Source of the DNA: an uncultured Holophagales bacterium
GTDB taxonomy: Bacteria > Acidobacteriota > Thermoanaerobaculia > Multivoradales > UBA5704
Direction: 5' to 3'
Length of the DNA: 64,000 nucleotides
NCBI GenBank assembly: GCA_963741305.1
Contig: CAVUHL010000003.1
Span: 1,434,260-1,498,259 of the forward strand
Shown: piece after piece, positions 1,572 to 63,765 of the stretch
Layout: each line of letters starts with the position of its first letter
Position numbering within the stretch: position 1 is the stretch's first letter
Notes under the pieces: model-generated
Told to the model about the DNA's origin: nothing
The model's input: the letters and a program-made list of their open reading frames with translations, nothing else
Databases searched by the model: none
Program-made: the position numbers and the translations under genes

Positions 1572-1576
1572 GTTCC

Positions 1577-2410
1577 CCGAATACGTTCCGCTTCCGAATA
1601 CGTTCCAGGGGAGTGTAGCGGGAATGTAGAAGAGAACCAGGAAAATCAATCCCACACGTAGTCATGCGCGGTCCTGCTGCGTTTTTCTGGCGGCGTTTTG
1701 GGGCGCTCGGCGCGTAGATTCACCCTGAACGTGGACTCCCATACAAGTTTTTCGAGCTCATTCTCGGCACTTGGACGTAACCTCTCCCTTCCTGGAGTCG
1801 TCCAGCCCTCAAAAGCCTTGACCAGAATCGCTCGGTGACGCCGATCACCGCCTGCTGCGGTGCGGTCGCTCACGCACGGACGAATGGCAGGCCCGGCGGA
1901 AAGCAGCCGTTAGGAAATCTCGCCGTGCGATCGCCGGCTTTGAGCCTCTCCGCGGCTTCACGGAAGGCCGCAAGGAAGAGGCCGTAGGCCTTCAGCCCGA
2001 ATACGTTCCAGGGGAGTGTAGAAGGAATGTAGAAGAGAAACCAGGAAATCAATCCCACACGTAGTCATGCGCGGTTCTGCTGCGCCTTTCAGGCGGCGTT
2101 TTGGGGCACTCGGCACGTAGATTCGCCCTGCACGTGGACTCCCATCCAAGTTTTTGGAGCTCTTTCTCAGCATTCGGACGTACCTCTCCCTCCTGGAGTC
2201 GTCCAGCCCTCGAAAACCTTGATGAGTATCGCTCGGCGACGGCGATCACGGCCTGCTGCGGTGCAGTCGCTCACACACGGACGAAGGGCAGACCCGGCGG
2301 AAAGCAGCCGTTGGGGAATCTCGCAGTGCGATCGCCGGCCTTGAGCCTCTCCGCGGCTTCACGGAAGGCCGCAAGGAAGAGGCCGTAGGCCTTTCGAAAG
2401 GCCTCGCGGG
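1577..2410. repeat. tandem direct duplication, two units of about 415 bp, including the 3' end of the transposase gene
   Basis: Sequence ccgaatacgttccaggggagtgtag...gaatgtagaagagaaccagg at 1578 recurs at 1997; ORF pairs 1646-1873/2049-2249 and 1870-2058/2271-2388 encode near-identical peptides (KAYGLFLAAFREAAERLKAGDRTARFPNGCFPPGLPFVR). Confidence 0.85.
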
Positions 2411-22964: not shown

Positions 22965-22972
22965 GGAGAGCC

Positions 22973-23150
22973 CCCCGCAGGGGGCGGCATGTAATAGCCC
23001 GGCACGTGAGTGCCGGGTTTGGGAGATCCAACGCAGTCCAGCCCCGTAGGGGCGGCATACCCGGCATGCCGCCCCTACGGGGCTGGACTCTGTTCCTGCG
23101 CAACGACCCGGCGCTCACGCGCCGGGCTATTTCATGTCGCCCCTGCGGGG
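22973..23150. repeat. compound nested palindrome containing a GTAGGGGCGGC REP-type element; probable bidirectional terminator region between convergent lptE and rpsT
   Basis: Outer 30-bp inverted repeat ccccgcagggggcggcatgtaatagcccggc / gccgggctatttcatgtcgcccctgcgggg; inner hairpins cccggcacgtgagtgccggg, cccggcgctcacgcgccggg; central perfect palindrome ccagccccgtaggggcggcatacccggcatgccgcccctacggggctgg. Confidence 0.8.
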
Positions 23151-23161
23151 CTTAAGACGGC

Positions 23162-30359: not shown

Positions 30360-30404
30360 GAGGGACGATCCATCTTTTCCGGCGTGACAGGGTACTAGGG
30401 TGCG

Positions 30405-30680
30405 CATGGCGCTCCCCGGCGTGCGCACGCCGTTTTCGTCGGGGAGAAGACGCCCCCCTGCGTTGACGACGCGCTCCCCGATGTCCGCATGCAGCCAACG
30501 CAGGGGAGAGAGGCTTTCCCCCACGCCTACGGCGCGCTCCCTGACGTCCGCGGGCCGCCAACACTGGGGAGAGGCTCCTCCCCGCGAGGGAGAACACCGC
30601 TCCCGTACGTGTGCAAGCCGCCAGCTCGGGGGCTGGCGCGCTCCCCGACGTGCCCGAGCTGCCCGCCTGGGCCTCTCACC
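30405..30680. repeat. tandem degenerate repeats (about 60-100 bp units, four copies) sharing GCGCTCCCYGAYGTSCGC
   Basis: Units begin at about 30405, 30470, 30533, 30636 with shared gcgctccccgatgtccgc / gcgctccctgacgtccgc / gcgctccccgacgtgccc and ggggagag segments. Confidence 0.6.
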
Positions 30681-30865
30681 CAACCCGCGGGTAGAACGTT
30701 GCAACCCGGCTCCGGAATGTTTCAACCGGCGGGTTGAACGTTGTAACCCGCCGGTTGGCCGTCCCAACCCGCGGGTTGAATCATTCCAGCCGGCTCCCGA
30801 ATGATTCCGGAACGTTCGCGAATGATTCCACCCGGCGGTTTGCCTCCTCAACCCGCGGGGGGAAT
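30680..30865. promoter_or_regulatory. array of at least five AACCCGCGGGTT-like palindromes upstream of the EamA/GNAT-aminotransferase operon
   Basis: caacccgcgggtagaacgttgcaacccgg, caaccggcgggttgaacgttgtaacccgccggttgg, caacccgcgggttgaatcattcc, cacccggcggtttg, caacccgcggggggaatgttgcc; spacing about 28-45 bp. Confidence 0.4.
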
Positions 30866-30917
30866 GTTGCCGGTCCCGGGTTTGGCGTCCCGCGGACACG
30901 GTAGAATGCTTCCCCGG

Positions 30918-36292: not shown

Positions 36293-36482
36293 AGTTCTCT
36301 TCTCAATCAGCGGAAACGCCCGCGATGACACCTACGCCTGGGGGCCTGCAGCGCGCACCTGGGCACGCGCCCAGCCGTCCTGTGCAGCGCACGACCGAAC
36401 TAAAGCTTCCTACATGGAACATGCCTATGACTCTACTCTGCCGTCTCTACCGTTGTACAGTGGGTTCTTTCCCAATGGCGCC

Positions 36483-37085
36483 CTACTGACTAGCGCCTAG
36501 GTAAGTTCCAAATAGCTGAAGACTGAACCCTGCAACAAGAAGAAGAAAGCCGAGAACGCCGACCGTGCCATCGGGCGTGCGAGCCTCGACAAACTCAAGA
36601 ACGCGAATTGGCAACTTGATCGTACCGGTAATCAGCATGTGCACCAGTTCCCCGAGGCCCCATAGCCCGATACCACCTCCAAAAAGCAACGCGAATAACA
36701 CTAATGGTATGCTGAAGTATAGGGGCTTTTCCCAGAGCCATATACCAGCCTGCGATAGCCACGCAACGAGACGCCCGTCAAACAGTTGATTAGCAAGTAC
36801 AAGCACGAAAAAGCCAGCGACGTAATGTAGGGTTATGAAGAGACCTGCATACCTTTCGCTGGGTATTTCACCATCTTCCCAAGCTTCCGGAGGAGTTGCC
36901 TCTGTCTCCTCATCGACAACCCGAATGCGCCGAATGCGTGGCGAGAGAGTATATCTGTAGGCACTCCGAAATACTCTCTCGCGTAGCACACGGAGGTTTT
37001 CGAGTTTGATCGCCTCGACAGCTACAAAGAAAGCTCCAATGATATCCAGCACTAGCCCAATCATCGTGAAGTGGTACGACTCCAT
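36483..37085 (-). CDS. hypothetical 4-TM membrane protein (200 aa), lower-GC islet
   Basis: ORF with four hydrophobic segments, GC about 52%. Confidence 0.45.
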   Translation of the reverse strand: MESYHFTMIGLVLDIIGAFFVAVEAIKLENLRVLRERVFRSAYRYTLSPRIRRIRVVDEETEATPPEAWEDGEIPSERYAGLFITLHYVAGFFVLVLANQLFDGRLVAWLSQAGIWLWEKPLYFSIPLVLFALLFGGGIGLWGLGELVHMLITGTIKLPIRVLEFVEARTPDGTVGVLGFLLLVAGFSLQLFGTYLGASQ

Positions 37086-37119
37086 AGATGTCGCTCAAGA
37101 CGGCCAACGGAGGTGCTGC

Positions 37120-37434
37120 TCAGCGGCCGTAAAGCGAAGCTTTTCGGTCCGCTAGAGCTGCCGGGCTGTTAGGCTCATCCCCTACGGACGTCGGCGGGAT
37201 AAGCACCCAAGCGTCTTGCTGGGCCACCGGTAACGCTTGCGTGCCCGGGGGATCACCAACATGCAAGAGTATGTAAGTCGGTTCTTCGTGCCTGTTGGTG
37301 ACCTGAGAAACCTCGTAAGAGACTCGAGTCTCGCCGACGCGGCGAATCCGATCGCCCTTCTTAAACTTCGGTGTGAACACTTCGGCCATATGCGTGCCCC
37401 CTGAGTTACTGTCGTGATGGTAACCGAATGTCAT
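37120..37434 (-). CDS. hypothetical small protein (89-104 aa)
   Basis: ORF in lower-GC islet, possible start at MAEVFTPKFKKGDRIRR. Confidence 0.35.
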   Translation of the reverse strand: MTFGYHHDSNSGGTHMAEVFTPKFKKGDRIRRVGETRVSYEVSQVTNRHEEPTYILLHVGDPPGTQALPVAQQDAWVLIPPTSVGDEPNSPAALADRKASLYGR

Positions 37435-37481
37435 AGTTTAAGAAACGTTACACAGGTCACCTAAGACGTTGAAATGATGAA

Positions 37482-37871
37482 CTATCTAATGAACGCCAAG
37501 GCGAGTGCAGTGAAGAGCATAGCACCAAGAAGCTGGTGACCCTTAAGCGCCAACTCAGGTGCTTCAGGGACGCGCCCCCGGACAAAGACGTCGGCGAGAA
37601 TCGCGCCGAACCCAGCAATTAGGTACAGCAGCATCATGCCCAAGTACGCTCCGAGAATGCTGGCGACGTGCCCGAGTAATCCAGGAACTTCAGGCTCCAG
37701 CTCCGCTCGGAAGACACCGTAAAGGACGATACCAGCTACCAACCAAAGGATCACTTTCCTCCCGGTTGTGGGCGTGCGTCCGTGGTAACCGTCCAAGGCA
37801 ACTCTGAGCGTGGGACTTGGCTCAGGTGTACTGTAGAGATGCTTGTTCAGGAGACGAGTGAGCAGGTTCAT
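37482..37871 (-). CDS. hypothetical 3-TM membrane protein (129 aa)
   Basis: ORF in lower-GC islet, hydrophobic segments. Confidence 0.4.
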   Translation of the reverse strand: MNLLTRLLNKHLYSTPEPSPTLRVALDGYHGRTPTTGRKVILWLVAGIVLYGVFRAELEPEVPGLLGHVASILGAYLGMMLLYLIAGFGAILADVFVRGRVPEAPELALKGHQLLGAMLFTALALAFIR

Positions 37872-38005
37872 CGGAGGTTCTCCATACTAGAGCCTGATCA
37901 ACAGCTAGCCATTGTTGCCAGACGCCTAACGGTGTATGAGTTCAGATGCAACACGAGCGCGAACGCGCGAGTGTTGTCCGCTACGACGAGGAGTTAGGCG
38001 ACCAG

Positions 38006-38584
38006 TCAATTCCGGGCCGACTGAGCTTCTTGTGGACAGGGAATGTTTCGCCAGCGACTCGGCGGACGGTAGAGGTCGGCGTTGACGTAGTAATCTGTCA
38101 GGAAGCCGAGGGATGTAATGACCACGATGTTGGCGCAGAGCGCTTCGTCGGGCACTTGACTTTCGTCGAGGGCTGCAACAAAGACCTCGACTTGCTTTGG
38201 CGCAAGCCTGATGGCTCCCTCTGGAGGTGGCTTCACTTGAATCCCGCCGTCGCGAAGCGTATTGCCCCGCTCATCAATGAAATTAATTCGTATGGCGCGC
38301 AACCAAATTTCCTTGCGGCTCGTGTTGACAATTCCTACGGACACCTCGGCTACACCGCTGGTGGGTTGTACCTCGACCGACTCCGCGTCTTCCCTGAGCC
38401 TGTCGTTGAGCTGAATGCCTAGCGATAGCACGGCGAGTAGCAGGCCTGCGGTGGCCACGATGCTATTGAGCACCTCGTGGGAAGATGCCTTCCTCTTGTC
38501 CGGTTCTTCGGGCATCGGGTTCGCTCCGATGGGCGCCTCTAGATCAGGATTCGACGAATTTCTGCCTTGCCGACAATCGAGCAT
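38006..38584 (-). CDS. hypothetical single-pass membrane protein (192 aa)
   Basis: ORF in lower-GC islet; one TM helix (VLNSIVATAGLLLAVLSLGI). Confidence 0.4.
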   Translation of the reverse strand: MLDCRQGRNSSNPDLEAPIGANPMPEEPDKRKASSHEVLNSIVATAGLLLAVLSLGIQLNDRLREDAESVEVQPTSGVAEVSVGIVNTSRKEIWLRAIRINFIDERGNTLRDGGIQVKPPPEGAIRLAPKQVEVFVAALDESQVPDEALCANIVVITSLGFLTDYYVNADLYRPPSRWRNIPCPQEAQSARN

Positions 38585-38885
38585 GCCCGGTGACTTATGA
38601 GAGCATGTCGATAAGCTTTTCGTTTCTGCACTTTAGCCTATGGTACGCCTAAGCCATGATCAGGTCAACTCAGCCAGGGTGTCGCGTAAGCCTTCTCCCT
38701 TTCGGAACGGGGCAGGACGCTTATGCGGCGTACTTCGGCCTGAGTCGCGGTCGTAAGTGGCTGATTCGAGAGCGGTGGCCCTGGAGCGGGCCATCCTTGC
38801 AGAAAGACGAGATCCCTGTCGCGGAGCCCGAAGGTGCGGCGACTTCTGCGTCAGAAGCGTGACAGATAAGCTGCCGGAGGCCTCG

Positions 38886-39404
38886 TCACGAATGGCTCTC
38901 TTTCTTCCTGGCAGGCGGCGGCTCCTTGGTGTAGAGGGCCTCTTGGTTCGCCTTGCCCGCCCGGACTTGATGGATGCGCCGCGCGGCGCTCATGCGGCGG
39001 AGGATCAAGGAGACGGCGGGCGGCTCTGCCGGCTGGCGCAGCGCCTGGGGGAAGCGGCGGTTGACCTCGTTGACCACGAGCCTCGTACCGAACCGCTCTC
39101 CGTCCGGACGGTCGGCCACGACCCGCTCCACCATCCCGGCCAGCGTCGGATGGCGTCCGAGGTCCTCTGCCGGTGGAGGCGCGGCCGATACCGGGACCGG
39201 AAAGTCGAGATCCGCCGCCACTGCCGCTACCGACCGGAACGACTCGAGGTGCGTCGTCGCATGCTCGAGCTCGGCCTCGCGCAGAGCCCGCTGCTCCCGG
39301 TGGTGCTCCTCCTGCCGGGCGTGCAACCCTATCTGCTCCTGCAGGGACTCGATTTGTCTCTCCAGGTTGACCAGAATCTCGGACAGCGAAAGGTTCAGGG
39401 CCAT
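38886..39404 (-). CDS. hypothetical coiled-coil protein (172 aa)
   Basis: ORF with heptad-like N-terminus (LSEILVNLERQIESLQEQIGLHARQEEHHREQRALREAELE); directly downstream of the 21-bp array. Confidence 0.4.
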   Translation of the reverse strand: MALNLSLSEILVNLERQIESLQEQIGLHARQEEHHREQRALREAELEHATTHLESFRSVAAVAADLDFPVPVSAAPPPAEDLGRHPTLAGMVERVVADRPDGERFGTRLVVNEVNRRFPQALRQPAEPPAVSLILRRMSAARRIHQVRAGKANQEALYTKEPPPARKKESHS

Positions 39405-39529
39405 CGTCCATCCTCATCGTCGAGACAGCCAGCCGGAACGCTACCCGTCAGGAGCCGCAAGTCGCGTCATCCTTTCCGATAAGCTCCACAGGCCGGGGGT
39501 TTCTGATGCGACGATAGCACAGGACGCGC

Positions 39530-40125
39530 GGTGGACCCTATCGGTGATGCGACCAGGAGCTGCGCGCGCGAGACAAACCCATCGCCGTCGCGGCAATCCC
39601 CATTCTGCCGCGACTTTGCCTTAAGTCGCGTCAGAAAGACCCATGGTGCCGCGACTTCAGCCAAAGTCGCGTCACCACAGCCTATCGGTGCCGCGACGAA
39701 ACCTGGAGTCGCGTCAGCAAAAGGATTCGTGACGCGACTATACCCTTCGTCGCGTCACTGTAATTCATCGTCGCGTCACCAAAGCCTATAGTCGCGTCAC
39801 GAAGCTTATGGTCGCGTCAGAAAAGCCTTGAGTCGCGTCATCAATGCTTATGGTCGCGTCGGCAAAGTCTTGAGTCGCGGCAGGAAAACCCGTAGTCGCG
39901 TCGCGAAGCTTATCGCTGACGCGACGATGGGTTGGGTCGCGGCAAAAAAGTCCAGAGTCGCGTCGGCAAAGGCCGGAGTCGCGTCAAAATGCCTTTCGGC
40001 GGGACGCCGAAGCTCTTGCGGCAGACGGCGAAGCCTTGGGTCGCGGCAGAAATGGCCCGGGTCGCATCACGAGAGCTTCGCGCAAGGCGGCGAAGCGTTG
40101 AGTCGCGACAGAAAAGCTCGTTGGC
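39530..40125. repeat. tandem array of about 27 copies of a 21-bp unit with conserved core AGTCGCGTCA (consensus GTCGCGTCANNAAAGCNTTNN)
   Basis: gtcgcgtcaccaaagcctata gtcgcgtcacgaagcttatg gtcgcgtcagaaaagccttga gtcgcgtcatcaatgcttatg gtcgcgtcggcaaagtcttga ...; constant 21-bp period, variable 3' half. Confidence 0.85.
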
Positions 40126-40132
40126 CTGGAGG

Positions 40133-41821
40133 TCAGTTCTTTTTCCAGCCCGTCCAACCCGGTCCCCGAACCACCCGTCCCGGCTTGGCGCCCGTGTGCT
40201 CGCCATCCTTGAGCACCTGCACGCCGTTGACCCAGACGTGGCGGACGCCCGTCGAGTACTGGTGCGGCTTTTCATAGGTGGCGTGGTCCTGCACCTTGGC
40301 CGGATCGAACACGGCGAGGTCCGCGAAAAACCCTTCCTTGAGCGTGCCACGCTCGCGGATCTTCAGGTTCTCGGCGGGCAGGGAGGTGAGCTTGCGCACG
40401 GCTTCTTCCAAGGGGATCACCTTCTCGTCGCGCACGTACTTGCCGAGCATGCGGGCGAAGTTGCCGTAGGCCCGCGGGTGCGGGTTGGACTTGAGGAAGG
40501 GGCCCTCGGGTGCCAGCGCTTCGCCGTCGGAGCCAAAGCTCATGTAGGGGAGCGCGACCTGGCGCTTGACGTTCTCCTCGGACATCACGAAGTAGATCGT
40601 TCCCACCCGGCTGTCGTCCTCGATGACCAGGTCCATGGCGGTCTCCTCGGGCGACTTGCCGCGCATCTTGGCGATCTCAGCGAGGGACTTGCCCGTGAGC
40701 GGCTTGAGCTTGTCGTTCTTGAAGGCCACCAGCAGGGTGTTCTCCGGCCCCGCGGCAAGAAAAAGGTTTTCCCACTCGTTGGTCGGGGTGGACATTTCCT
40801 TCTTCAGGCGCTCGCGGATGGCGGGGTCCTGCATGCGCTCTTTCCAGGCCTTGAGGCCGCCTTCCTGGACCCACGGCGGCATGGCGGCGTCGAGCCCGGT
40901 CGCGCCGGCCGTGTAGGTGTACATGTCCGTGGTGATCCGCATGCCGTTGGCGCGTGCCTTCTCGATCTTCTCGAGCACCTGGTCGAGCTTGCCCCAGTTC
41001 TGTTTGCCGGCTGCCTTGAGGTGGTAGATCTCGGCCGGGATCCGCGCCCGCCGCGAGATGTCGATGAGCTCGTCCACGGCTTCGAGCAGGCGGTTGCCTT
41101 CGCTGCGCATGTGGGAGATGTACATGCCGCCGTACGGGGAGGCCTCCTGGCACAGGGCCACGAGCTCCTCGGTGCCGGCGTAGAAGGCGGGCGCGTAGAT
41201 CAGGGAGGAGCCCACGCCCAGGGCGCCCTCTTCCATGGCCTGCCGCACCAGGGCCCGCATGCGCTGCAGCTCGTCGGGCGTGGGGGGCCGGTTCTCGTAG
41301 CCCAGCTCGTGGACGCGCACGGTGGTCGCTCCCACGAAGCTGGCCACGTTCGGCGAGGTCCCGCGCTTTTCCAGGTGCTCCAGGTACTCGCCGAGGGTGG
41401 TCCAGGTGATGGGAAACTTGATGTCCCCCTGCTGCTCGACGTACTCCTTCTTCATGGCCTCGTTGAGCGGTCCCATGGACCAGCCCTCGCCCATGACTTC
41501 CAGGGTCACGCCCTGCCGGATGTCGCTCTGGCCGCGCCCGTCGTGGATCAGGGAGTCGGTGGCCCAGCTCAGCATGTTGATGAAGCCGGGCGCCACGGCC
41601 AGGCCTTTGACGTCGACCTCGCTCTTGCCTGTGGCTTTGCCCAGGTCTCCGACCTTGGCGATGCGGTCGCCCTTGATGGCGACGTCGCCCACGTAGGGCT
41701 TACCGCCGCTGCCGTCGTAAATCGTGCCGCCGCGGAGGATCACGTCGTACTCTTCAGCGGCGAGGGGGAGGGCGAAAAGGACCAAGGCGAGAGATAGGCG
41801 GCTTAAGAGGCGGATTGTCAT
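40133..41821 (-). CDS. D-aminoacylase (N-acyl-D-amino-acid deacylase), amidohydrolase family, secreted
   Basis: Signal peptide; YDVILRGGTIYDGSG...VAIKGDRIAKVG...GLAVAPGFINMLSW metal-binding HxH-type start and overall length typical of D-aminoacylases. Confidence 0.8.
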   Translation of the reverse strand: MTIRLLSRLSLALVLFALPLAAEEYDVILRGGTIYDGSGGKPYVGDVAIKGDRIAKVGDLGKATGKSEVDVKGLAVAPGFINMLSWATDSLIHDGRGQSDIRQGVTLEVMGEGWSMGPLNEAMKKEYVEQQGDIKFPITWTTLGEYLEHLEKRGTSPNVASFVGATTVRVHELGYENRPPTPDELQRMRALVRQAMEEGALGVGSSLIYAPAFYAGTEELVALCQEASPYGGMYISHMRSEGNRLLEAVDELIDISRRARIPAEIYHLKAAGKQNWGKLDQVLEKIEKARANGMRITTDMYTYTAGATGLDAAMPPWVQEGGLKAWKERMQDPAIRERLKKEMSTPTNEWENLFLAAGPENTLLVAFKNDKLKPLTGKSLAEIAKMRGKSPEETAMDLVIEDDSRVGTIYFVMSEENVKRQVALPYMSFGSDGEALAPEGPFLKSNPHPRAYGNFARMLGKYVRDEKVIPLEEAVRKLTSLPAENLKIRERGTLKEGFFADLAVFDPAKVQDHATYEKPHQYSTGVRHVWVNGVQVLKDGEHTGAKPGRVVRGPGWTGWKKN

Positions 41822-51300: not shown

Positions 51301-52973
51301 GTGGTTCTCCCGTGACAACCTTCGCAGGTGATCGGAAGCGGTTTGAAGCGGACGACCCGGCCTTCAGATCGATGACACGCGCTACAGGGCAGGCGGGCGT
51401 GGGCTCCCACCAGCTTGAAGCGCGAGTGCCGGTCGTGATCGAACGTGACGCGGGCCCAGCTCTGCACCGAGTGGCACGATTGGCAGCCCGCCTGGACGAG
51501 CTGCCCCTCATGGGGATCGCCATGGCAGGCATTGCAGGCTTTGGGAGTGCCTTGAAACTTCCCCTGCTTGTGGCATTGGCCGCAGGACACCTTCTGATGC
51601 CCGCCTTCCAAGGGGAAGCCGGTCTTCGTGTGATCGAAGGCCGCGAGATGCGTCCAGCCCTCGATCGAGTGGCACGTCCGGCACCCCTGCGGACCCTGGA
51701 CGCGGCTCACCTGCCCTTTGTGGGGATCGCCGTGACAGGCCTGGCACTCGGTGGACTCCCACTTGAAGCGGATCACCCCGGAGGCGTTCTTCTTGTGACA
51801 GGAGATGCAGGGCACCGCGAGGTGAGCCCCCTGAAGAGGGAAGCGGGTCTTCTGGTGCCGCTCCAGGGGGAAGGTCGAGGGAGAGAAGCCCGACAGCGTG
51901 TGGCAGCTCTCGCAGGCCGAGCTTGCGATCTGTCCCGCGTGGACGTTCTTGTGACAATCCGCGCACGCCTGGAACTTTGCGAAGCGCAGGCTCCGGCCAG
52001 AGGTGTGGCAAGACTGGCAGCTCACCTTCTGATGCTGCCCGCGCAGGGGGAAGCGGGTCTTGTCGTGATCGAACTTTGCGCTGCTCCCCACCTTCCATCC
52101 GGCGGTGGAGTGGCACTGCTGGCAAGTCGTGCCGAGCCGCCCCTGGTGCGGGTCCTTGTGGCAATCGGTGCACCGCTGGTGCGCCAGCTTCGTGAACTTT
52201 CCCGATTTGTGACAGCTCGCGCAGGCCACGGCCTTGTGCTGGCCGGTGAGCGGGAAGCCGGTGCGGTCGTGATTGAAATTGGCCATGGCACCCGTCTTCC
52301 ACCCGGCAGTGGAGTGGCACTGCTGACAGGTAGCTCCGAAGCGTCCCTGGTGCGGGTCCTGGTGGCAGCTCGCGCAGCTCTGGTGCTGGATTCCCTTAAA
52401 CTGCCCGCTCGGGTGACAGCTCGCGCAAGCGACCTTCTGATGCAGTCCGGTGAGAGGAAAGACCGAATGGTCGAGCTTCGCAAGCGGCTTCCAAGCCACC
52501 GTCGTGTGGCAGGAGACGCAGGCCTTTTGAGCGAACTGGCCGCGGTGCTCGTCCCGGTGGCAGGAACGGCAGGTGGGGGAGAGCCCGAGAAAGGTTTTCT
52601 TCGGCGGACGGTGGCAGGACTGGCAAGCCTGCTTCGCGTGCGCTCCTTGCAGCGGCCATCCGGTCGAGCGGTGATCGAATCCAGCCTGTCCCTTCTTCCC
52701 CCAATCGATGAGCTTGAACTCCCGTCCGTGGTGCTCGATGTGGCAGGTCTGGCAGGCGCGGTACTCGGGCCGGGCGTGAAGCCGGCTGGACTTGATGGCG
52801 GTGTGGCAGTCGAGGCACTTCGAGGGCGCCACACCCTGGCCGGCCTGGTGGCACTTCAGGCAGTTGGCGCTCCCTTCCAGCTTGGCGTGCGGCTGGCTGA
52901 GCTTGCCGGGGGAGAGCTGGGCCGCGAGGGGGGCCGAAGCGAGGAACAGCGCCAGGATGATCCCCTTTCGCAT
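51297..52973 (-). CDS. large multihaem c-type cytochrome (about 23 CxxCH motifs)
   Basis: Signal peptide MRKGIILALFLASAPLAAQ; CxxCH repeated about every 22-25 residues through 558 aa. Confidence 0.85.
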   Translation of the reverse strand: MRKGIILALFLASAPLAAQLSPGKLSQPHAKLEGSANCLKCHQAGQGVAPSKCLDCHTAIKSSRLHARPEYRACQTCHIEHHGREFKLIDWGKKGQAGFDHRSTGWPLQGAHAKQACQSCHRPPKKTFLGLSPTCRSCHRDEHRGQFAQKACVSCHTTVAWKPLAKLDHSVFPLTGLHQKVACASCHPSGQFKGIQHQSCASCHQDPHQGRFGATCQQCHSTAGWKTGAMANFNHDRTGFPLTGQHKAVACASCHKSGKFTKLAHQRCTDCHKDPHQGRLGTTCQQCHSTAGWKVGSSAKFDHDKTRFPLRGQHQKVSCQSCHTSGRSLRFAKFQACADCHKNVHAGQIASSACESCHTLSGFSPSTFPLERHQKTRFPLQGAHLAVPCISCHKKNASGVIRFKWESTECQACHGDPHKGQVSRVQGPQGCRTCHSIEGWTHLAAFDHTKTGFPLEGGHQKVSCGQCHKQGKFQGTPKACNACHGDPHEGQLVQAGCQSCHSVQSWARVTFDHDRHSRFKLVGAHARLPCSACHRSEGRVVRFKPLPITCEGCHGRTT

Positions 52974-57759: not shown

Positions 57760-57769
57760 GCAGCGAGCG

Positions 57770-58045
57770 GGGCGGGCTCCGCCCCACTTGGGGGAGCATC
57801 CGCCCTAAATGGGGCGGCGTCCGCCCCGTATGGGGGAGCGATTGCCCCACATGGGGCGAGAGTCGCCCAAAAAAGGGCGAACGCTCCCCCAAGTGGGGGA
57901 GTTACTCCCCCAGCTAGGGCGATGACTGCCCCACATGGGGCGAGCGTTGCCCCATCTGGGGGGAGAGCTCCCCTTTTTGGGGCGGACGTTCCCCCATCTG
58001 GGGCGGACGCTGCCCCACAAAGGGCGAAGACCGCCCCAGATTCCC
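57770..58045. repeat. tandem array of about 13 copies of a 21-bp unit, each containing a GCCCC-N4-GGGGC mini-hairpin
   Basis: ccgccccacttgggggagcat ccgccctaaatggggcggcgt ccgccccgtatgggggagcgat tgccccacatggggcgagagt cgcccaaaaaagggcgaacgct ...; strict 21-bp phase. Confidence 0.85.
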
Positions 58046-58056
58046 GAGCTACTCCC

Positions 58057-58160
58057 CTGGGAGCGCCGGCGTCTCGCCGGCCCACGCTCCCCGCCCCCGA
58101 AGAAGGTCGGGCCTTCGGCCCAATGTTTTTTAGGAAGCCGGCGAGACGCCAGCGCTCCCA
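58057..58160. repeat. hairpin element, second member of the GGGCCTTCGGCCC-core family; includes probable intrinsic terminator for the PP2C gene
   Basis: 25-bp inverted repeat ctgggagcgccggcgtctcgccggc / gccggcgagacgccagcgctcccag flanking cgaagaaggtcgggccttcggcccaatgttttttagg. Confidence 0.75.
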
Positions 58161-60191: not shown

Positions 60192-63100
60192 AAGGCATGA
60201 GGGAGCCACACTCCCGAGTAAGCTCCTCCAGGTTGGAGGTCCGGCTGGCAGAAAACATCTCCTCACTTCTCTCACTCGTCTTGCCGCAAGGCGCCCTGAA
60301 GCGCGAGGTTGGTTGAAGAGCGCTCTATCGGAAAATTTAAAGGAACTAATGGAACCAGCCGTCTTAGTCGCATTCGAGACAGGCGATCCTATAGGCCAAG
60401 TTCTGGCGGAACTGATTGAGGAGCAAGGGGACGAGCAGATTGTTCGACAGCTGCAAGAACTCTGTGATCAGCCGCAATTTGAGAATTCCATACCTCTGCT
60501 CGAATTAGGCGTGATAGTAACAAAGAAGGTCCTAGAGAGTTACGGGTTAGATTTTTCCTCTGAACCTGCCGATAGGGTGCGGGCTTATGCTCATCTCTTG
60601 GAGAATCTTGCTACCCGCCTTGGAGCCCTGGGTCGACTGGAGGAAGCGCTAGAGCACGCTGAGCATGCCGTGGGTCTCTTTCGGGGTCTGCCCCCCGAGA
60701 CTCCTGATGTAGCAGCCGATTTGGGGAGAAGCTTAACCAACTTGGGCCTCCGTCTCAGTGCTTTAGGTCGTGTAGAGGATGCACTTTCAGCGAGCGAGGA
60801 GTCGATAAGTCTGGTTCGGCAGTCGTCTCGCCTTCAGTTCGCAAATCACGTCAATGTTCAGATCCTGGGTGATAACAACGTCGTCCTCATCGGCAGATCC
60901 CGCCTCGACCTTACGCTCTACCGCGGGCGGAGGGGGGCGGCTTTTTCCTCTCCTGGGGAGGCGGGCGAGGCAGCCGAGGTCCTCAGCCCCTATGCCATGG
61001 CGGTCCCTCTCGTAGGCCGGGAGCGGGAATGGTCCGATCTCTGGACTTGGCTGAACAGCGGCTTGTCTGTATCCATCCGTGTCGTCACCGCGCCTGGCGG
61101 TGGCGGCAAGACGCGCCTTGCACTGGAACTCTGCGAGGAGGCTGTCCGCCGGGGGTGGTACGCCGGCTTCGTGAAGACTACAGCGCCCTTGGACTCTGTT
61201 GCAGGAAAGTTGCCGCGCCCGACGCTCGCTGTGGTGGACTACGCCGCCGCCCGGCTCCCCTGGCTGCGGGAGTGGTTGGCCGACCTCGCCAGTTCGCCGC
61301 CCGTCGGCGGTCCGCTGCGCATCTTACTCCTCGAACGGAACGCTGATCCGGCGTTGGGTTGGTGGGCGGAGACGTTCCGGAGGGGGAGTTGTGGAGATGC
61401 AGCAGTCCGGCACCTGCTGGATCCTGCCGATGGTCCCTACCCACTCCCACCACTTCGCCAGGTGGAACAACGGCGGGCTATCCTAGAAGCAACGCTCCGG
61501 AGCATCGGGAGCGATTTACGGCTACCGACGCGCGAGGAGCACCCGGACTTCGACCGCCAGTTGGCGACGCTGAGTTGGGGTGGCGAGCCGCTCTTTCTTA
61601 TGATGGCTGCCCTTACCGGAGCGAAGTGCGGTCTGGGGCACGTCCTCTCCTTGAATCGGGCAGACCTAGCCTTCGAGGTCGCTCAGCGGCGCGAGTTGAA
61701 CCGGATTAGTCAGATCGGGATGAGCCGCCTAATCTCAGAGTCTTTGGTCTGCCACATGGCGGCCTACGTGACCCTCTGCCAAGGACTTACGCGCGAGCAA
61801 GCGGAGGTAGCAATTGTAGTTGAGGACGAGGCATTGCGGCACGATCGTCTCAGTGATCCGCTGGTGATCTACGGGGCTCTGTACAACGCCCTTCCTGGAG
61901 CCGGGAATGCCATCGCGCCCATTCTGCCTGATGTGGTCGGGGAGGCTGCAATCTTGATGGCGCTCGGCGAGATGGATTTGGCAAAGGCTAGCGAGGCGGT
62001 CGTCCGAGCAGCAAACCAGGCACCGGAAAGGGTAGCAGCGACTGTGATGCGGATGGTCCAGGACTTCGGTGATTACGATAGCCGGCCAATAGAATGGCTG
62101 AACCGACTGACCGAAGACGTTATCGATTTAGAGGGATTGAAGAGGCTCGTTGGTCAGTTGCCAGAGAAGACTATAGTATTACGCGAGTTCTCTGCTAAAG
62201 TGATGGCGGCGCTGCTCGAGCGACTCCGTGGGGAAGGCGAAAAGGAAGGCATAGCTCTAGCCAGCAATAATCTTTCTATATATCTGGCCTCCCTTGGCCG
62301 TAGAGAAGAGGCGTTGGAGGCAGTGCAAGAGGCGGTTTTCCTATACCGTGATTTAGAGCAGTTCCGTCCTGATGTGTTCGGCCCCGACCTTGCAACATCG
62401 CTCAACAACCTATCCAATAGTCTGAGCGAACTTGGCCATAGTGAAGAGGCTTTGGTGGCGGTGCAAGAGGCGGCTTCCCTATACCGGAATCTAGCGCAGT
62501 CGCGTCCTGATGCGTTCGGGCCAGACCTCGCAACATCTCTCAACAACCTGTCCAACCGTCTGAGCGATCTCGGACGTCGTGAAGAGGCTTTGGAGTCAGT
62601 GCAAGAGGCGGTTGCCCTATACCGGAATCTAGTGCAGTTCCGTCCTGATGCATTCGGTCCGGATCTCGCGACATCTCTCAGCAACTTGTCCAACCGCCTG
62701 AGCGATCTCGGTAGGCTGGAGGAGGCTTTTAACTCGGTACAGGAGGCTGTAGATCTGTACCGTGAGCTGTCGTTTTTGCGACCCGATGCTTACCGTCCAG
62801 ACTTTGCGACGTCTCTCAACAACCTATCCAACCGCCTAAGCGCCCTTGGCCATCGCGAAGAGGCATTGGCGGTCGTGCAGGAGGCGGTGGATGTGTACCG
62901 CGAGCTTTCGCAGGCTCGTCCCGACGCGTTCTATCCGAATCTTGCGCTATCACTCAACAACCTTTCCAATCATCTGAGCGCTCTTGGCCGTCAAGAAGAG
63001 GCTCTGGAGGCCGTGCAGGAGGCATTAGCTGTATATCGTGAGCTTTCTCAGTCTCGTCCCGACGCGTTCCGTCCGGACACGGCGAAGTCGCTCAACAACT

Positions 63101-63765
63101 TGTCGAATTATCTGCGCGCTCTTGGCCGTCCTGAAGAGGCTCTAAGGGCTGTCGAGGAGTCGGTGGCTGTATACCGTGAGCTTGCGCCATTGCGTCCGGA
63201 GGCATTTCGTCCGTACTTGGCAATTTCGCTCAACAACCTATCTGTTCATCTGAGCGCTCTTGGCCGACGTGAAGAGTCGCTGGAGACAGTAGAGGAGGCA
63301 GTGGATGTCTATCGCGAACTTTCGCGGTCCCGTCCTGATGCGTTCCGGACGGATCTTGCGACGTCGCTCAACAATCTTTCCAATCGGCTGAGCGATCTTA
63401 GCCGCCGTGAAGAGGCTCTGGCGGCAGTGCATGAGTCAGTGGCCATCCGGCGCGAGCTTTCGCAGTCCCGTCCTGATGCGTTCCGGCCGGACCTTGCCTC
63501 CTCTCTCCACAACGTTGCCCTCCGGCTGCAGGAACTTGGCAGGCTTGGTGAAGCGCTGGAGGCCTCGGAAGAGGCCGTCCGCATGCTCCTGCCTTTCTTC
63601 CAAGCGCTTCCGGCAGCTTTTCGGGGCTGGATGACATGGATGACCAGCTTGTATCAGAAGTTATCGGTGGAGAATGGCCGACAACCCGATCCCGAGCTGA
63701 TCCAAGCGATCGCCTCTTCATCGGAGCGAGTCGAGCCTTCTTCTGACCCAGGGAGCCCATCATGA
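60181..63765 (+). CDS. STAND-class P-loop NTPase with two N-terminal and about eleven C-terminal TPR (TPR_10/12-like) repeats
   Basis: ATG overlapping upstream stop by 11 nt; Walker A VVTAPGGGGKTRLALELCEE, Walker B TLAVVDYAA; eleven 42-aa repeats SLNNLSNRLSxLGRxEEALxxVQEAVxLYRELSQSRPDAFRPDLAT. Confidence 0.7.
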   Translation: MTDKRHEGATLPSKLLQVGGPAGRKHLLTSLTRLAARRPEARGWLKSALSENLKELMEPAVLVAFETGDPIGQVLAELIEEQGDEQIVRQLQELCDQPQFENSIPLLELGVIVTKKVLESYGLDFSSEPADRVRAYAHLLENLATRLGALGRLEEALEHAEHAVGLFRGLPPETPDVAADLGRSLTNLGLRLSALGRVEDALSASEESISLVRQSSRLQFANHVNVQILGDNNVVLIGRSRLDLTLYRGRRGAAFSSPGEAGEAAEVLSPYAMAVPLVGREREWSDLWTWLNSGLSVSIRVVTAPGGGGKTRLALELCEEAVRRGWYAGFVKTTAPLDSVAGKLPRPTLAVVDYAAARLPWLREWLADLASSPPVGGPLRILLLERNADPALGWWAETFRRGSCGDAAVRHLLDPADGPYPLPPLRQVEQRRAILEATLRSIGSDLRLPTREEHPDFDRQLATLSWGGEPLFLMMAALTGAKCGLGHVLSLNRADLAFEVAQRRELNRISQIGMSRLISESLVCHMAAYVTLCQGLTREQAEVAIVVEDEALRHDRLSDPLVIYGALYNALPGAGNAIAPILPDVVGEAAILMALGEMDLAKASEAVVRAANQAPERVAATVMRMVQDFGDYDSRPIEWLNRLTEDVIDLEGLKRLVGQLPEKTIVLREFSAKVMAALLERLRGEGEKEGIALASNNLSIYLASLGRREEALEAVQEAVFLYRDLEQFRPDVFGPDLATSLNNLSNSLSELGHSEEALVAVQEAASLYRNLAQSRPDAFGPDLATSLNNLSNRLSDLGRREEALESVQEAVALYRNLVQFRPDAFGPDLATSLSNLSNRLSDLGRLEEAFNSVQEAVDLYRELSFLRPDAYRPDFATSLNNLSNRLSALGHREEALAVVQEAVDVYRELSQARPDAFYPNLALSLNNLSNHLSALGRQEEALEAVQEALAVYRELSQSRPDAFRPDTAKSLNNLSNYLRALGRPEEALRAVEESVAVYRELAPLRPEAFRPYLAISLNNLSVHLSALGRREESLETVEEAVDVYRELSRSRPDAFRTDLATSLNNLSNRLSDLSRREEALAAVHESVAIRRELSQSRPDAFRPDLASSLHNVALRLQELGRLGEALEASEEAVRMLLPFFQALPAAFRGWMTWMTSLYQKLSVENGRQPDPELIQAIASSSERVEPSSDPGSPS

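What the first reader, a model, noticed from the sequence alone, without database searches (positions are those of the whole stretch)
39530..40125. About 600-bp tandem array with strict 21-bp period and AGTCGCGTCA core
About 27 consecutive units each keep a 10-bp core (GTCGCGTCAN) followed by a variable 11 bp, which is loosely AAAGCCTTRNG. There are no spacers, so it is not a CRISPR. A 21-bp period is two helical turns, so the conserved half-sites lie on one DNA face. This is characteristic of iteron or binding-site arrays that nucleate a protein filament. It sits in the upstream region of the coiled-coil orphan gene and at the 3' end of the D-aminoacylase gene. A second, unrelated 21-bp array lies at 57770-58045.
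Basis: seen in the sequence. Interest (0 to 1): 0.6.

Follow-up and report, generated by a model that had tools for sequence, protein, structure and literature searches.

The report
Repeat array paired with its DNA-binding protein
The 650-bp repeat array is real and appears to be the docking platform for the small DNA-binding protein encoded right next to it; this array-plus-binder pair recurs, with matching changes in both partners, across a whole class of soil bacteria and has not been described before.

Summary
The array is real (window 39461-40110). It has about 26 copies of the core GTCGCGKCA in about 31 slots of 21 bp. Two points need correcting: a third of the cores are inverted, and the array starts further left than reported. 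It is non-coding and is not a CRISPR. It shows no sign of being a structured RNA and has no match on plasmids or phages.

The organism is a Thermoanaerobaculia acidobacterium with an 8.4-Mb chromosome. Collinear homologous arrays occur in at least 15 other loci.

The adjacent 172-aa "orphan" (38886-39404, minus strand) belongs to an unannotated family of about 430 clusters. Each member has a 60-residue coiled coil, a disordered linker and a winged-helix DNA-binding domain. All 13 family members I examined have a 20-21-bp periodic array directly upstream, ending 15-60 bp from the start codon. The core sequence changes as the protein diverges, and two paralogues in one genome carry different cores.

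Core centres stay 21 bp apart whichever way they point. Cores are more conserved than neutral sites, and indels come in multiples of 21 bp.

Best reading: a cognate array-plus-binder module that coats one face of the DNA and represses its own gene. Its wider role is unknown. It resembles plasmid centromeres and iterons but fails their membership tests. Some arrays lack the gene in cis.

The parts
39461..40110 (.). Whole repeat array: 26 cores (GTCGCGKCA, at most 1 mismatch) in about 31 slots of 21 bp, non-coding. It fills the gap between the amidohydrolase stop codon and the start of gene A.
   Evidence: Collinear homologues in 15 other loci.
39419..39426 (.). Degenerate last core (GTCGAGAC on + strand, one mismatch from the palindrome GTCGCGAC), 15 nt upstream of the gene A start codon and next to its Shine-Dalgarno sequence. 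It is an intact GTCGCGAC or GACGCGAC in relatives L136, L130 and L120.
   Evidence: Read directly from the sequence.
39461..39553 (.). Gene-proximal sparse cores (39461 +, 39504 -, 39545 -) spaced 41-43 bp. This is the likely promoter/operator zone of gene A.
   Evidence: The arrangement is conserved in the alignments. The promoter position is inferred, not shown.
39587..39757 (.). Alternating-orientation segment: nine cores +,-,+,-,+,-,+,-,+ with 19 / 22-23 bp start-to-start spacing, forming inverted-repeat pairs.
39749..39986 (+). Direct-repeat segment: 12 cores at 21 bp (one at 20), with a single inverted core at 39917-39925.
39987..40110 (.). Distal degenerate segment. Variant units (GGCRRRCGGCGAAGCYYTTG) are conserved between genomes. 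Cores lie at 40040, 40061 and 40102, the last being the perfect palindrome GTCGCGAC at 40102-40109.
38886..39404 (-). Gene A, 172 aa: coiled-coil helix (residues 7-66) with invariant H28, E32, H35, R36, Q38 and R39; a Pro/Ala-rich disordered linker (67-87); and a C-terminal winged helix-turn-helix (88-160). This is the proposed cognate binder of the array.
   Evidence: No Pfam, NCBIfam or PADLOC family, only one marginal PHROG match (E 0.0077, unknown function), and no sequence relative in the PDB.

Best explanation
The array is the cognate DNA docking platform of the protein encoded immediately next to it (gene A, 38886-39404, minus strand). Together they form a conserved two-part chromosomal module.

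Proposed mechanism. Gene A protein self-associates through its 60-residue N-terminal coiled coil. Each winged-helix domain, held on a roughly 20-residue flexible linker, reads one 9-10-bp core (GTCGCGKCA). Core centres lie 21 bp apart, which is two helical turns, so all bound domains sit on the same face of about 0.65 kb of DNA. The flexible tether would explain why a core can point either way without losing phase. The gene-proximal cores flank the promoter and 5' UTR of gene A, and one lies 15 nt from the start codon, so the complex should repress its own gene. The other 20 or more sites are far more than autoregulation needs. I therefore infer that they build a large, sequence-addressed nucleoprotein body: a centromere-like landmark, or a roadblock/insulator between the upstream gene and the variable genes downstream of gene A.

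Shown by computation:
- the array and its phasing;
- selection on the cores;
- the winged-helix fold of gene A;
- the invariable gene-array adjacency in this family;
- co-variation of core sequence with protein sequence;
- orthogonal pairs within one genome.

Inferred, not shown:
- physical binding;
- oligomeric state;
- autorepression;
- the cellular role.
For: (1) Phasing independent of orientation. In 330 cores from 15 homologous arrays, start-to-start spacing is 21/20 for ++ neighbours, 22-23 for +- and 19 for -+. With the site centre shifted by 1 nt, 212 of 317 neighbour distances are 20-21, and 90% lie within +/-1 of a multiple of 21.
(2) Selection on cores. Between the window and a 95%-identical relative (L136), four-fold degenerate sites of the flanking genes are 0.83 identical, cores 0.95-0.96 and spacers 0.85-0.86. 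Their large indels are 21 bp, or 41 bp in one of the two alignments. Other pairs show the same pattern, with some exceptions.
(3) Collinear homologous arrays of 0.45-0.8 kb occur in genome and metagenome loci.
(4) Gene A is a real, conserved gene with 432 clusters at 50% identity, all about 160-175 aa. The AlphaFold2 model (pLDDT 81) shows a long helix, a linker and a winged helix. The best Foldseek matches are the DNA-binding domains of Fur, PadR, MarR, RTP and TubR.
(5) All 13 gene A loci examined have a 20-21-bp periodic array directly upstream.
(6) Co-variation. Close proteins share GACGCGA or GCCGCGA cores. Proteins 30-45% identical have other cores (TGYCGCGAAG, GTCGCRATGT, CAGCGCRTA, GTCGCGTATC, TGCCGCAA), and the pattern follows the protein tree.
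(7) Two paralogues in one MAG (locus tags VGG03_19355 and VGG03_27820) have different cores and periods.
(8) No evidence for RNA. There is no Rfam match. Both strands fold equally well, z = -5.4 each. The variable core position is not compensated in inverted pairs: 23 matched against 24 mismatched, with about 18 matches expected by chance.
Against: - No binding experiment exists; the pairing rests on adjacency and co-variation.
- In nine loci that form four related pairs plus one singleton (L093/L124, L108/L121, L110/L123, L119/L127, L122) a homologous array has no gene A within the sequence held. Four of these loci (L093, L108, L110, L123) have several kb of sequence beyond the gene-proximal end; the rest sit on short contigs. 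In three of these pairs the cores are still better conserved than the spacers (L119/L127 is 0.970 vs 0.967, no difference). So either the binder acts in trans from elsewhere, which I could not check, or the array has a function that does not need gene A.
- Other Thermoanaerobaculia arrays share the GTCGCGTCA core with a different unit (L011, L067, L069, L080, L096) and lack a gene A neighbour.
- No conserved partner gene (motor, initiator, recombinase) points to a cellular role.
- The promoter of gene A was not located.
Confidence: 0.65

Rival explanations
1. It is the iteron-type replication origin, or the partition centromere, of an integrated plasmid-like or mobile element. Gene A would be its initiator or centromere-binding protein.
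For: The form matches. There are phased 20-22-bp repeats next to the gene of a winged-helix protein with a leucine-zipper-like N-terminus. Inverted copies lie nearest the gene and direct copies further away, as in Rep/iteron replicons. In the main subfamily a low-GC, strain-variable gene set lies just downstream of gene A.
Against: No Rep, ParA, ParM, TubZ, relaxase or integrase domain was found within 4-10 kb in any locus. Gene A has one winged helix and 172 aa, not the two-domain Rep architecture, and it hits no Rep family. Array GC is 0.56-0.65 with no AT-rich unwinding stretch. Gene A has the GC content of the host, 0.66-0.74. The loci lie in 7.05- and 8.38-Mb contigs. There is no tblastn or blastn match in 72,556 plasmids, no tblastn match in 50,697 phages, and no pattern match in viral contigs.
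Confidence: 0.1
2. The array is bound by some other host factor, or by several. Gene A sits next to it only because the array is its unusually long regulatory region.
For: Arrays persist under selection without gene A in cis. Arrays with the same core but different spacers occur elsewhere in related genomes without gene A.
Against: This does not explain why the core changes together with gene A's sequence. It also does not explain why two paralogues in one genome have different arrays.
Confidence: 0.1
3. The array is a recombination or integration hot spot, a multi-site attachment region, that captures foreign genes downstream of gene A.
For: In the window, L130, L131 and L136, the 3 kb downstream of gene A has 0.53-0.57 GC, against 0.67-0.69 upstream of the array. 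That region holds non-homologous orphan genes. It differs even between strains whose gene A is 95% identical: four orphans in the window, an orphan plus an Mrr-type nuclease in L136.
Against: No recombinase is nearby. The variable genes lie beyond gene A, not within or next to the repeats. Distant family members (L133, L134, L135, L139) are followed by ordinary genes of normal GC.
Confidence: 0.06
4. The array is transcribed and acts as a structured RNA, either a long leader of gene A or a stand-alone non-coding RNA built of repeated hairpins.
For: Inverted cores can form many hairpins, and the fold is more stable than shuffles (z = -5.4). The array fills the whole gap between two co-directional genes, so read-through transcription is likely.
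Against: The opposite strand folds equally well. There is no Rfam match. The variable core position gives T-C or G-A mismatches as often as matches. Half of this array, and all of the L133, L134 and L137 arrays, are direct repeats that cannot pair locally. Constant 21-bp centre spacing has no rationale in RNA.
Confidence: 0.05
5. It is a neutral minisatellite, a slippage product with no function.
For: Units are gained and lost in 21-bp steps between strains.
Against: The array is collinear and recognisable between genomes whose flanking genes are unrelated. Cores are more conserved than four-fold degenerate sites. The array keeps a fixed position and polarity relative to a conserved gene in 13 of 13 loci.
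Confidence: 0.04

Closest known systems
Plasmid partition centromeres with their centromere-binding proteins: tubC/TubR (type III), parC/ParR of R1 and pSK41 (type II), sopC/SopB of F
   Same: An array of short phased repeats (10-43 bp units; 20 bp in pSK41) lies immediately upstream of the gene for the small DNA-binding protein that coats it and represses the operon. TubR is also a winged-helix protein; it appears in the fold search at rank 49 (3m8e). (Plasmid facts are from my own knowledge.)
   Different: No motor NTPase gene (ParM, ParA or TubZ) lies nearby. The module is chromosomal. There is no sequence homology. The array is longer, at 20-37 slots. Cores occur in both orientations. The protein carries a 60-residue coiled coil.
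Iteron/Rep replication origins (pPS10, F, R6K, P1)
   Same: Repeats of 17-22 bp are spaced about two helical turns apart. Direct copies lie in a block and inverted copies lie at the promoter of the adjacent gene. That gene's product has winged-helix DNA binding and a leucine-zipper-like N-terminus. (Own knowledge; general review PMC4980987 listed, not read.)
   Different: There are no WH1+WH2 Rep domains and no Rep Pfam hit. No DnaA boxes or AT-rich element were seen. There are about 26 sites instead of 3-9. The module is chromosomal and there is no plasmid match.
Omega repressor of pSM19035 and other ribbon-helix-helix proteins that bind runs of 7-8-bp repeats
   Same: The protein reads a short asymmetric repeat that works in direct or inverted orientation, provided the spacing is kept. 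(Own knowledge.)
   Different: The fold is different (ribbon-helix-helix against winged helix). The repeats are contiguous 7-bp units rather than 9-bp cores every 21 bp, and there are fewer of them.
RacA and its ram sites in Bacillus subtilis
   Same: A small protein combines a winged-helix-type DNA-binding domain with a coiled coil and binds GC-rich sites (TGACGCCGGCGTCA, which shares GCGTCA with this core) to build a chromosomal anchoring complex. (Own knowledge.)
   Different: RacA's sites are about 25 copies dispersed over hundreds of kb, not a tandem array. The domain order is reversed. There is no homology. RacA belongs to sporulation in Firmicutes.
Winged-helix recombination directionality factors and excisionases that oligomerise on repeated sites (Cox, Xis, RdfS)
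   Same: Small winged-helix proteins form filaments on short direct repeats. (RdfS paper PMC11963761 was listed; only its abstract was seen.)
   Different: Those act at att sites together with an integrase. No integrase or att context is present here, and this array is much larger.

Membership tests
Iteron/Rep plasmid origin | Tandem 17-22-bp repeats phased about two helical turns apart | tested here: met
   21-bp centre-to-centre phasing.
Iteron/Rep plasmid origin | Adjacent gene encodes a Rep-type initiator (two winged-helix domains, Rep_3/RepA families) | tested here: not met
   No Pfam or NCBIfam hit. The model shows one winged helix plus a coiled coil in 172 aa.
Iteron/Rep plasmid origin | AT-rich unwinding element and DnaA boxes beside the repeats | tested here: not met
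   Array GC is 0.60 and the flanks are coding sequence. No AT-rich stretch is visible in the sequence. DnaA boxes were not searched for formally.
Iteron/Rep plasmid origin | Resides on, or derives from, an extrachromosomal replicon | tested here: not met
   The contigs are 8.38 Mb and 7.05 Mb. There is no match in the plasmid (gene A and array), phage (gene A only) or viral-contig (array core pattern) collections.
Plasmid partition system (types I-III) | Repeat centromere upstream of the gene for its binding protein | tested here: met
   The array ends 15-60 bp before gene A in 13 of 13 loci. Binding itself is inferred.
Plasmid partition system (types I-III) | Cognate NTPase motor gene (ParA, ParM or TubZ) in the same operon | tested here: not met
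   No such Pfam domain among the called genes within 4-10 kb in nine loci with gene tables (L130, L131, L133, L134, L136-L140) or in the window.
CRISPR array | Identical repeats separated by unique spacers of similar length, with cas genes | tested here: not met
   The 12 nt between cores is itself a weakly conserved repeat. Cores occur in both orientations. No cas genes are nearby.
Structured non-coding RNA | Strand-specific conserved secondary structure with compensatory changes | tested here: not met
   No Rfam hit. Both strands have the same z-score. No compensation at the variable core position.
REP/MITE-type dispersed repeat | Many dispersed copies per genome | tested here: inconclusive
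The whole 8.4-Mb genome was not available.
Coding heptad repeat (21 bp = 7 codons) | A conserved open reading frame through the repeats | tested here: not met
   Only short ORFs cross the array (up to 86 aa inside it; 146-149 aa for two that also run into the amidohydrolase gene) and they are not conserved. There are 19-23-bp spacings and inverted units.
Winged-helix DNA-binding proteins (fold level, for gene A) | H1-B1-H2-H3-B2-B3 topology with a recognition helix and wing | tested here: met
   AlphaFold2 model, pLDDT 81-88 over residues 88-160. Foldseek matches the DNA-binding domains of Fur, PadR, MarR, RTP and TubR with probability about 1.0 but weak E-values (5e-3 and above).

The most novel reading that the evidence does not exclude
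Thermoanaerobaculia chromosomes carry a previously unrecognised class of 'satellite-like' landmarks. Each is a 0.45-0.8-kb phased repeat array with its own private coiled-coil/winged-helix binder. Several orthogonal pairs can coexist in one genome, and extra binder-less arrays may be read in trans. The binder's coiled-coil core carries invariant His/Glu/His/Arg at the a/d positions (H28, E32, H35, R39). That pattern suggests a metal- or redox-switchable assembly. On this reading the module would be a new kind of switchable chromosomal body used for chromosome organisation or anchoring, or for insulating or silencing adjacent acquired genes. It would be independent of ParABS and would not derive from plasmid partition or replication systems.
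Probability: 0.3. Interest if true: 0.8.

Novelty: new variant of a known kind. Interest (0 to 1): 0.65.

Why it matters
Arrays of phased protein-binding repeats are well known on plasmids, as centromeres and iterons. A chromosomal array-plus-binder pair with no motor or initiator, spread through a whole bacterial class, has not been described as far as I could find.

If the pairing is real, it has three consequences:
- It gives function to an unannotated protein family of several hundred clusters.
- It explains a class of conspicuous intergenic repeats that fragment metagenome assemblies; most homologues sit on 1-3-kb contigs.
- It offers a natural set of orthogonal DNA-address/reader pairs, with specificity differences already visible between paralogues.

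It also raises a testable question: what does a bacterium do with a 0.6-kb protein-coated DNA body placed next to variable, horizontally acquired genes?

Tried and rejected
- CRISPR. Rejected: no unique spacers, no cas genes, and cores in both orientations.
- Coding heptad repeat. Rejected: no conserved ORF and frame-breaking spacings.
- Known RNA family. No gathering-level hit; only noise at E of 0.2 or above.
- Strand asymmetry of folding. None.
- Compensatory change in inverted pairs. None.
- tRNA or integration site. No tRNA in the window.
- Replication origin or terminus. Cumulative GC skew is monotonic across the window, with no turn at 39.5 kb.
- Sigma-70 promoter and terminator scan. 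One promoter-like site inside the array, created by the repeat itself, and two weak terminator-like hairpins at chance level. Not informative.
- Shared flanking genes between array loci. None besides gene A.
- PHROGs, PADLOC and NCBIfam for gene A and the four downstream orphans. Nothing usable.
- PDB by sequence. Nothing.
- Plasmid and phage collections and viral contigs. Nothing.
- Literature searches for Thermoanaerobaculia tandem repeats, iteron-like repeats in Acidobacteria, and 21-bp repeats with winged helix. Nothing relevant.
- Gene A paralogues near the window's two other 21-bp arrays, or near the L011, L067, L069, L080 and L096 arrays. None.
Full report
**1. The observation**

The sequence at 39300-40400 shows a dense run of the motif GTCGCGKCA. 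GTCGCGNC occurs 46 times in the 64-kb window, and 25 of those lie between 39461 and 40109. Dinucleotide-preserving shuffles of the whole window give 33 +/- 6.6. Tandem Repeats Finder breaks the region into period-21 and period-41/42 pieces at 39599-39697, 39770-39913 and 39936-39989.

Allowing one mismatch, I find 26 cores from 39461 to 40110.
- Nine cores are inverted. They alternate +/- across 39587-39757, and there is one more at 39917.
- Start-to-start spacing is 19-23 bp rather than strictly 21.
- About five slots are degenerate.
- Sparse cores run left to 39461. A one-mismatch core sits at 39419-39426, 15 nt from the start codon of the neighbouring gene.

The array is not coding. Only short, non-conserved ORFs cross it. 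It fills the entire gap between the stop of an Amidohydro_3 gene (40133-41821, minus strand) and the start of a 172-aa gene (38886-39404, minus strand), which I call gene A. The second 21-bp array at 57769-58045 is real and has an unrelated core.

**2. Organism and homologous arrays**

Two Acido-Lenti-1 RNAs and the protein hits place the window in a Thermoanaerobaculia (Acidobacteriota) chromosome. Gene A's exact sequence lies on an 8,381,596-bp contig.

A two-core DNA pattern scan of one genome per species gave mostly chance single hits. It also found true homologous arrays in three Thermoanaerobaculia/Acidobacteriota MAGs: L093, L108 and L110. A three-core pattern scan of metagenomes returned 11 loci, nine of which hold an array of at least five cores. 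The same pattern found nothing in viral contigs.

These arrays are 0.45-0.8 kb long and collinear with the window's array. Mean column identity is 73% for the first three sequences. They share the same layout: an alternating part at one end, a direct part in the middle, and a degenerate part ending in a palindromic GTCGCGAC at the other end. So this is a conserved element, not a locally expanded minisatellite.

**3. DNA-level or RNA-level?**

I analysed 330 cores from 15 arrays.
- Direct neighbours are 21 bp apart (87 cases) or 20 (23 cases).
- Head-to-head neighbours are 22-23 bp apart (44 cases).
- Tail-to-tail neighbours are 19 bp apart (52 cases).

If the true site centre lies 1 nt 3' of the 9-mer's centre, all three classes collapse to 20-21 bp. 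Ninety per cent of all neighbour distances then fall within +/-1 of a multiple of 21. Keeping the centres two helical turns apart whatever the orientation makes sense for proteins bound on one face of duplex DNA. It makes no sense for RNA hairpins.

Four other results agree:
- Both strands fold equally well, z = -5.4 each.
- No Rfam family matches.
- In 47 head-to-head pairs the variable core position (G or T) is matched 23 times and mismatched 24 times, against about 18 matches expected by chance. The mismatches are T-C or G-A, not wobble pairs.
- Several family arrays consist of direct repeats only.

**4. Selection**

The contig behind L136 carries a gene A that is 95% identical and the same amidohydrolase and GSDH neighbours.
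- Four-fold degenerate sites of those two neighbours are 0.83 identical.
- Array cores are 0.95-0.96 identical and spacers 0.85-0.86.
- In the alignment the four large window-L136 indels are each exactly 21 bp; the realignment gives four of 21 and one of 41.
- Most larger indels in the other pairs are near multiples of 21 (20/21, 41/42, 62/63, 84/85), but not all: the diverged pair L130/L131 has gaps of 166 and 37, and a few gaps of 2-5 bp occur elsewhere.

Cores are therefore maintained, and unit gain or loss preserves phase. One caveat: in a repeat, an aligner will always pair cores with cores. The persistence of intact cores in both lineages is the real signal.

**5. The neighbouring gene**

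Gene A has no family in Pfam, NCBIfam or PADLOC, and only one marginal PHROG match (phrog_25447, E 0.0077, unknown function). It has no sequence relative in the PDB. It is nevertheless a real family:
- 58 homologues by single-sequence search;
- at least 389 by profile search;
- 432 clusters at 50% identity in an exhaustive HMMER search, 306 of them at E <= 1e-10.

Nearly all are 160-175 aa and match full-length. Every hit that carries an organism name is from Thermoanaerobaculia or Acidobacteriota.

The alignment and the AlphaFold2 model (pLDDT 81) show three parts:
- one long helix, residues 7-66;
- a Pro/Ala-rich low-confidence linker, residues 67-87;
- a canonical winged helix, residues 88-160, with the recognition-helix/wing signature VSxxLRRMxxxRRIxxVRxGKxxxEALY.

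Foldseek against the PDB returns the DNA-binding domains of Fur, PadR, MarR, RTP and TubR, with probability about 1.0 but weak E-values of 5e-3 and above.

Reading the sequence, the hydrophobic residues of the long helix follow a strict 3-4 spacing: L7, L11, L14, I18, L21, I25 ... L46, A49, L53, F56, A60, A63. The invariant H28, E32, H35 and R39 fall on the a/d core positions. This suggests a polar, possibly metal-binding, layer inside the coiled coil. That last point is inference only.

**6. Gene-array linkage and co-variation**

I looked for arrays next to gene A homologues.
- They sit next to the homologous array in L120, L129 and, truncated, in L128.
- I fetched contigs for homologues from 95% down to 36% identity: P0002, P0010, P0025, P0049, P0051, P0056, P0108, P0110, P0122 and P0132.
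- Every one has a gene-free stretch of 0.45-1.0 kb directly upstream, with a 20- or 21-bp autocorrelation peak.

In total, 13 of 13 loci with DNA show the linkage. One further homologue (P0043), for which no DNA was available, has a 770-bp gap upstream.

The core differs between subfamilies:

| Loci | Core | Period |
|---|---|---|
| window, L136, L130 | GACGCGAC | 21 bp |
| L120, L131 | GCCGCGAC | 21 bp |
| L129 | GACGCGGCA | 20 bp |
| L133 | TGYCGCGAAG | 20 bp |
| L137 | GTCGCRATGT | 20 bp |
| L139 | GTCGCGTATC | 20 bp |
| L134 | CAGCGCRTA | 20 bp |
| L138 | TGCCGCAA | 21 bp |
| L135 | TTCGCNGCA | 21 bp |

A core-by-array count matrix is roughly block-diagonal and tracks identity in the winged-helix region. 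For example, L133 and L137 are 75% identical there, have nearly the same recognition helix, and have similar cores.

Two paralogues with locus tags from one MAG (VGG03_19355 and VGG03_27820) have quite different arrays.

This co-variation is the strongest evidence that gene A's product reads the array. It is still indirect.

**7. What does not fit**

Nine loci, forming four related pairs and one singleton, carry a homologous array but no gene A within the sequence held: L093/L124, L108/L121, L110/L123, L119/L127 and L122. Four of them (L093, L108, L110, L123) have several kb of sequence beyond the gene-proximal end; the others sit on short contigs with under 1 kb there. In L093, L124 and L122 the first 25 nt or so of gene A are still recognisable, which points to deletion. 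In three of these pairs the cores are still better conserved than the spacers, for example 0.984 against 0.882 in L093/L124; in L119/L127 they are equal (0.970 against 0.967).

So either a binder encoded elsewhere acts in trans, or the array has a gene-A-independent role. I could not fetch the rest of those genomes to decide.

Related genomes also hold arrays with the same GTCGCGTCA core but different units, none with a gene A neighbour. Examples are the 21-bp GTCGCGTCACACCTTGAGAGT in L011, L067 and L069, and the 22-bp GTCGCGTCACACGGTGTGTGAC in L080 and L096. L067, L080 and L096 all come from one MAG.

**8. Context and possible role**

No ParA, ParM, TubZ, Rep, relaxase or integrase domain occurs within 4-10 kb of gene A in any locus. 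Gene A and the array have no match in the plasmid or phage collections. Gene A has host-like GC of 0.66-0.74.

Genes on both sides differ between loci. In the main subfamily, the 3 kb downstream of gene A is low-GC (0.53-0.57 against 0.67-0.69) and holds unrelated orphan genes. This region differs even between the window and its 95% relative: four orphans in the window, an orphan plus an Mrr-type nuclease in L136.

In six of eight loci the upstream gene is co-directional, and in most of them the array begins 11-50 bp after its stop codon (205 bp in L137). That leaves no room for a separate terminator. In L133 and L140, gene A is followed 13-44 bp later by an SNF2-family helicase.

These facts are compatible with a roadblock/insulator or a chromosomal landmark. 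They do not prove either.

**9. Conclusion**

The 'iteron' (replication) sense is not.

The best explanation is a cognate array-plus-binder module: coiled-coil/winged-helix protein bound to phased cores, repressing its own gene and building a large nucleoprotein body. My confidence is about 0.65 for the pairing and mechanism. The cellular role remains open.

It works like plasmid centromere/iteron systems but fails their membership tests: no motor, no initiator, chromosomal location, no homology. I file it as a new variant of a known kind. About 0.3 probability remains that it is a genuinely new class of chromosomal landmark.

Noticed in passing
window 57769-58045: Second intergenic array with a 21-bp period and a different, palindromic core (GCCCCAnnTGGGGCG). 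It lies between a HAMP/SpoIIE phosphatase gene and a STAND-NTPase-like gene followed by a TPR gene. No gene A-like protein is nearby.
   Followed up: partly
window 58059-58081 (-) and 58137-58159 (+); L093 522-544: A 23-nt element, GCCGGCGAGACGCCAGCGCTCCC, occurs as an inverted pair just after the second array. The identical sequence sits directly beside the distal end of the homologous array in another genome (L093). It looks like a REP/MITE-type element shared between genomes.
   Followed up: partly
window 30400-30880: Third repeat-rich intergenic region: roughly 60-bp repeats (gcgctccccg...) followed by 21-bp units (CAACCCGCGGGTTGAACGTTG and GAATGATTCCAGCCGGCTCCC). It lies upstream of an EamA transporter gene and downstream of a 148-aa gene with no Pfam hit.
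   Followed up: no
window 36300-38900: Low-GC stretch (0.55-0.59 against about 0.67) downstream of gene A, holding four orphan genes, two of them membrane proteins, with no usable family hit in any library (only a far-sub-threshold TrbF match for one). The 95%-identical relative L136 has different genes at this position: a 289-aa orphan and an Mrr_cat nuclease.
   Followed up: partly
L011, L067, L069, L080, L096 (Thermoanaerobaculia MAGs DATART01 and DASYJF01): Other tandem arrays share the GTCGCGTCA core but have different units (21 bp GTCGCGTCACACCTTGAGAGT; 22 bp GTCGCGTCACACGGTGTGTGAC). In L069 a further 21-bp array follows (GGATCGCGGATCATTCTCGGA). One MAG holds at least three such arrays. 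None has a gene A neighbour, and several end at contig ends.
   Followed up: partly
window 38886-39404 versus L136 5001-5519: Four-fold degenerate sites of gene A are 0.949 identical between the two strains, against 0.83 in the two neighbouring genes. This could mean extra nucleotide-level constraint or recent exchange of this gene.
   Followed up: no
gene A residues 28-39 (window about 39288-39323, minus strand): The invariant residues H28, E32, H35 and R39 fall on the a/d core positions of the predicted coiled coil, and E32-x-x-H35 forms an ExxH motif. This may be a metal-binding layer. It is inferred from the sequence pattern only.
   Followed up: no
L133 5533-8772 and L140 10502-13726: In two distant family members, gene A is followed within 13-44 bp by a roughly 1075-aa SNF2-family helicase (with SNF2_assoc and SWIM domains in L133). 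This suggests an operon in that sub-lineage.
   Followed up: no
window 22969-23017 (-) and 23107-23152 (+): Two copies of the Acido-Lenti-1 small RNA motif in divergent orientation, about 90 bp apart.
   Followed up: no
window 1594-2393; 52092-52461; 62293-63528: Longer tandem repeats: a 401-bp unit x2 (91% identical) near the low-GC start of the window; a 204-bp unit x1.8; and 138-bp units x8.7, which are the TPR_10/TPR_12 repeats of the 1194-aa gene.
   Followed up: no
L108 about 1390-1590 (- strand): In this locus the homologous array lies just downstream of a short Cys-rich ORF (my own unverified translation...FCWCSKTCDCCETATQAR) next to a 415-aa ORF that I did not scan against any family library; it may be a lanthipeptide cluster, but that is a guess from the peptide sequence alone. 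This shows that the array's neighbours are unrelated between genomes.
   Followed up: no
protein hit lists: Most gene A homologues sit on contigs of only 0.7-3 kb, and several arrays end at contig ends (L121, L122, L124, L129). This suggests these arrays routinely break short-read metagenome assemblies.
   Followed up: no
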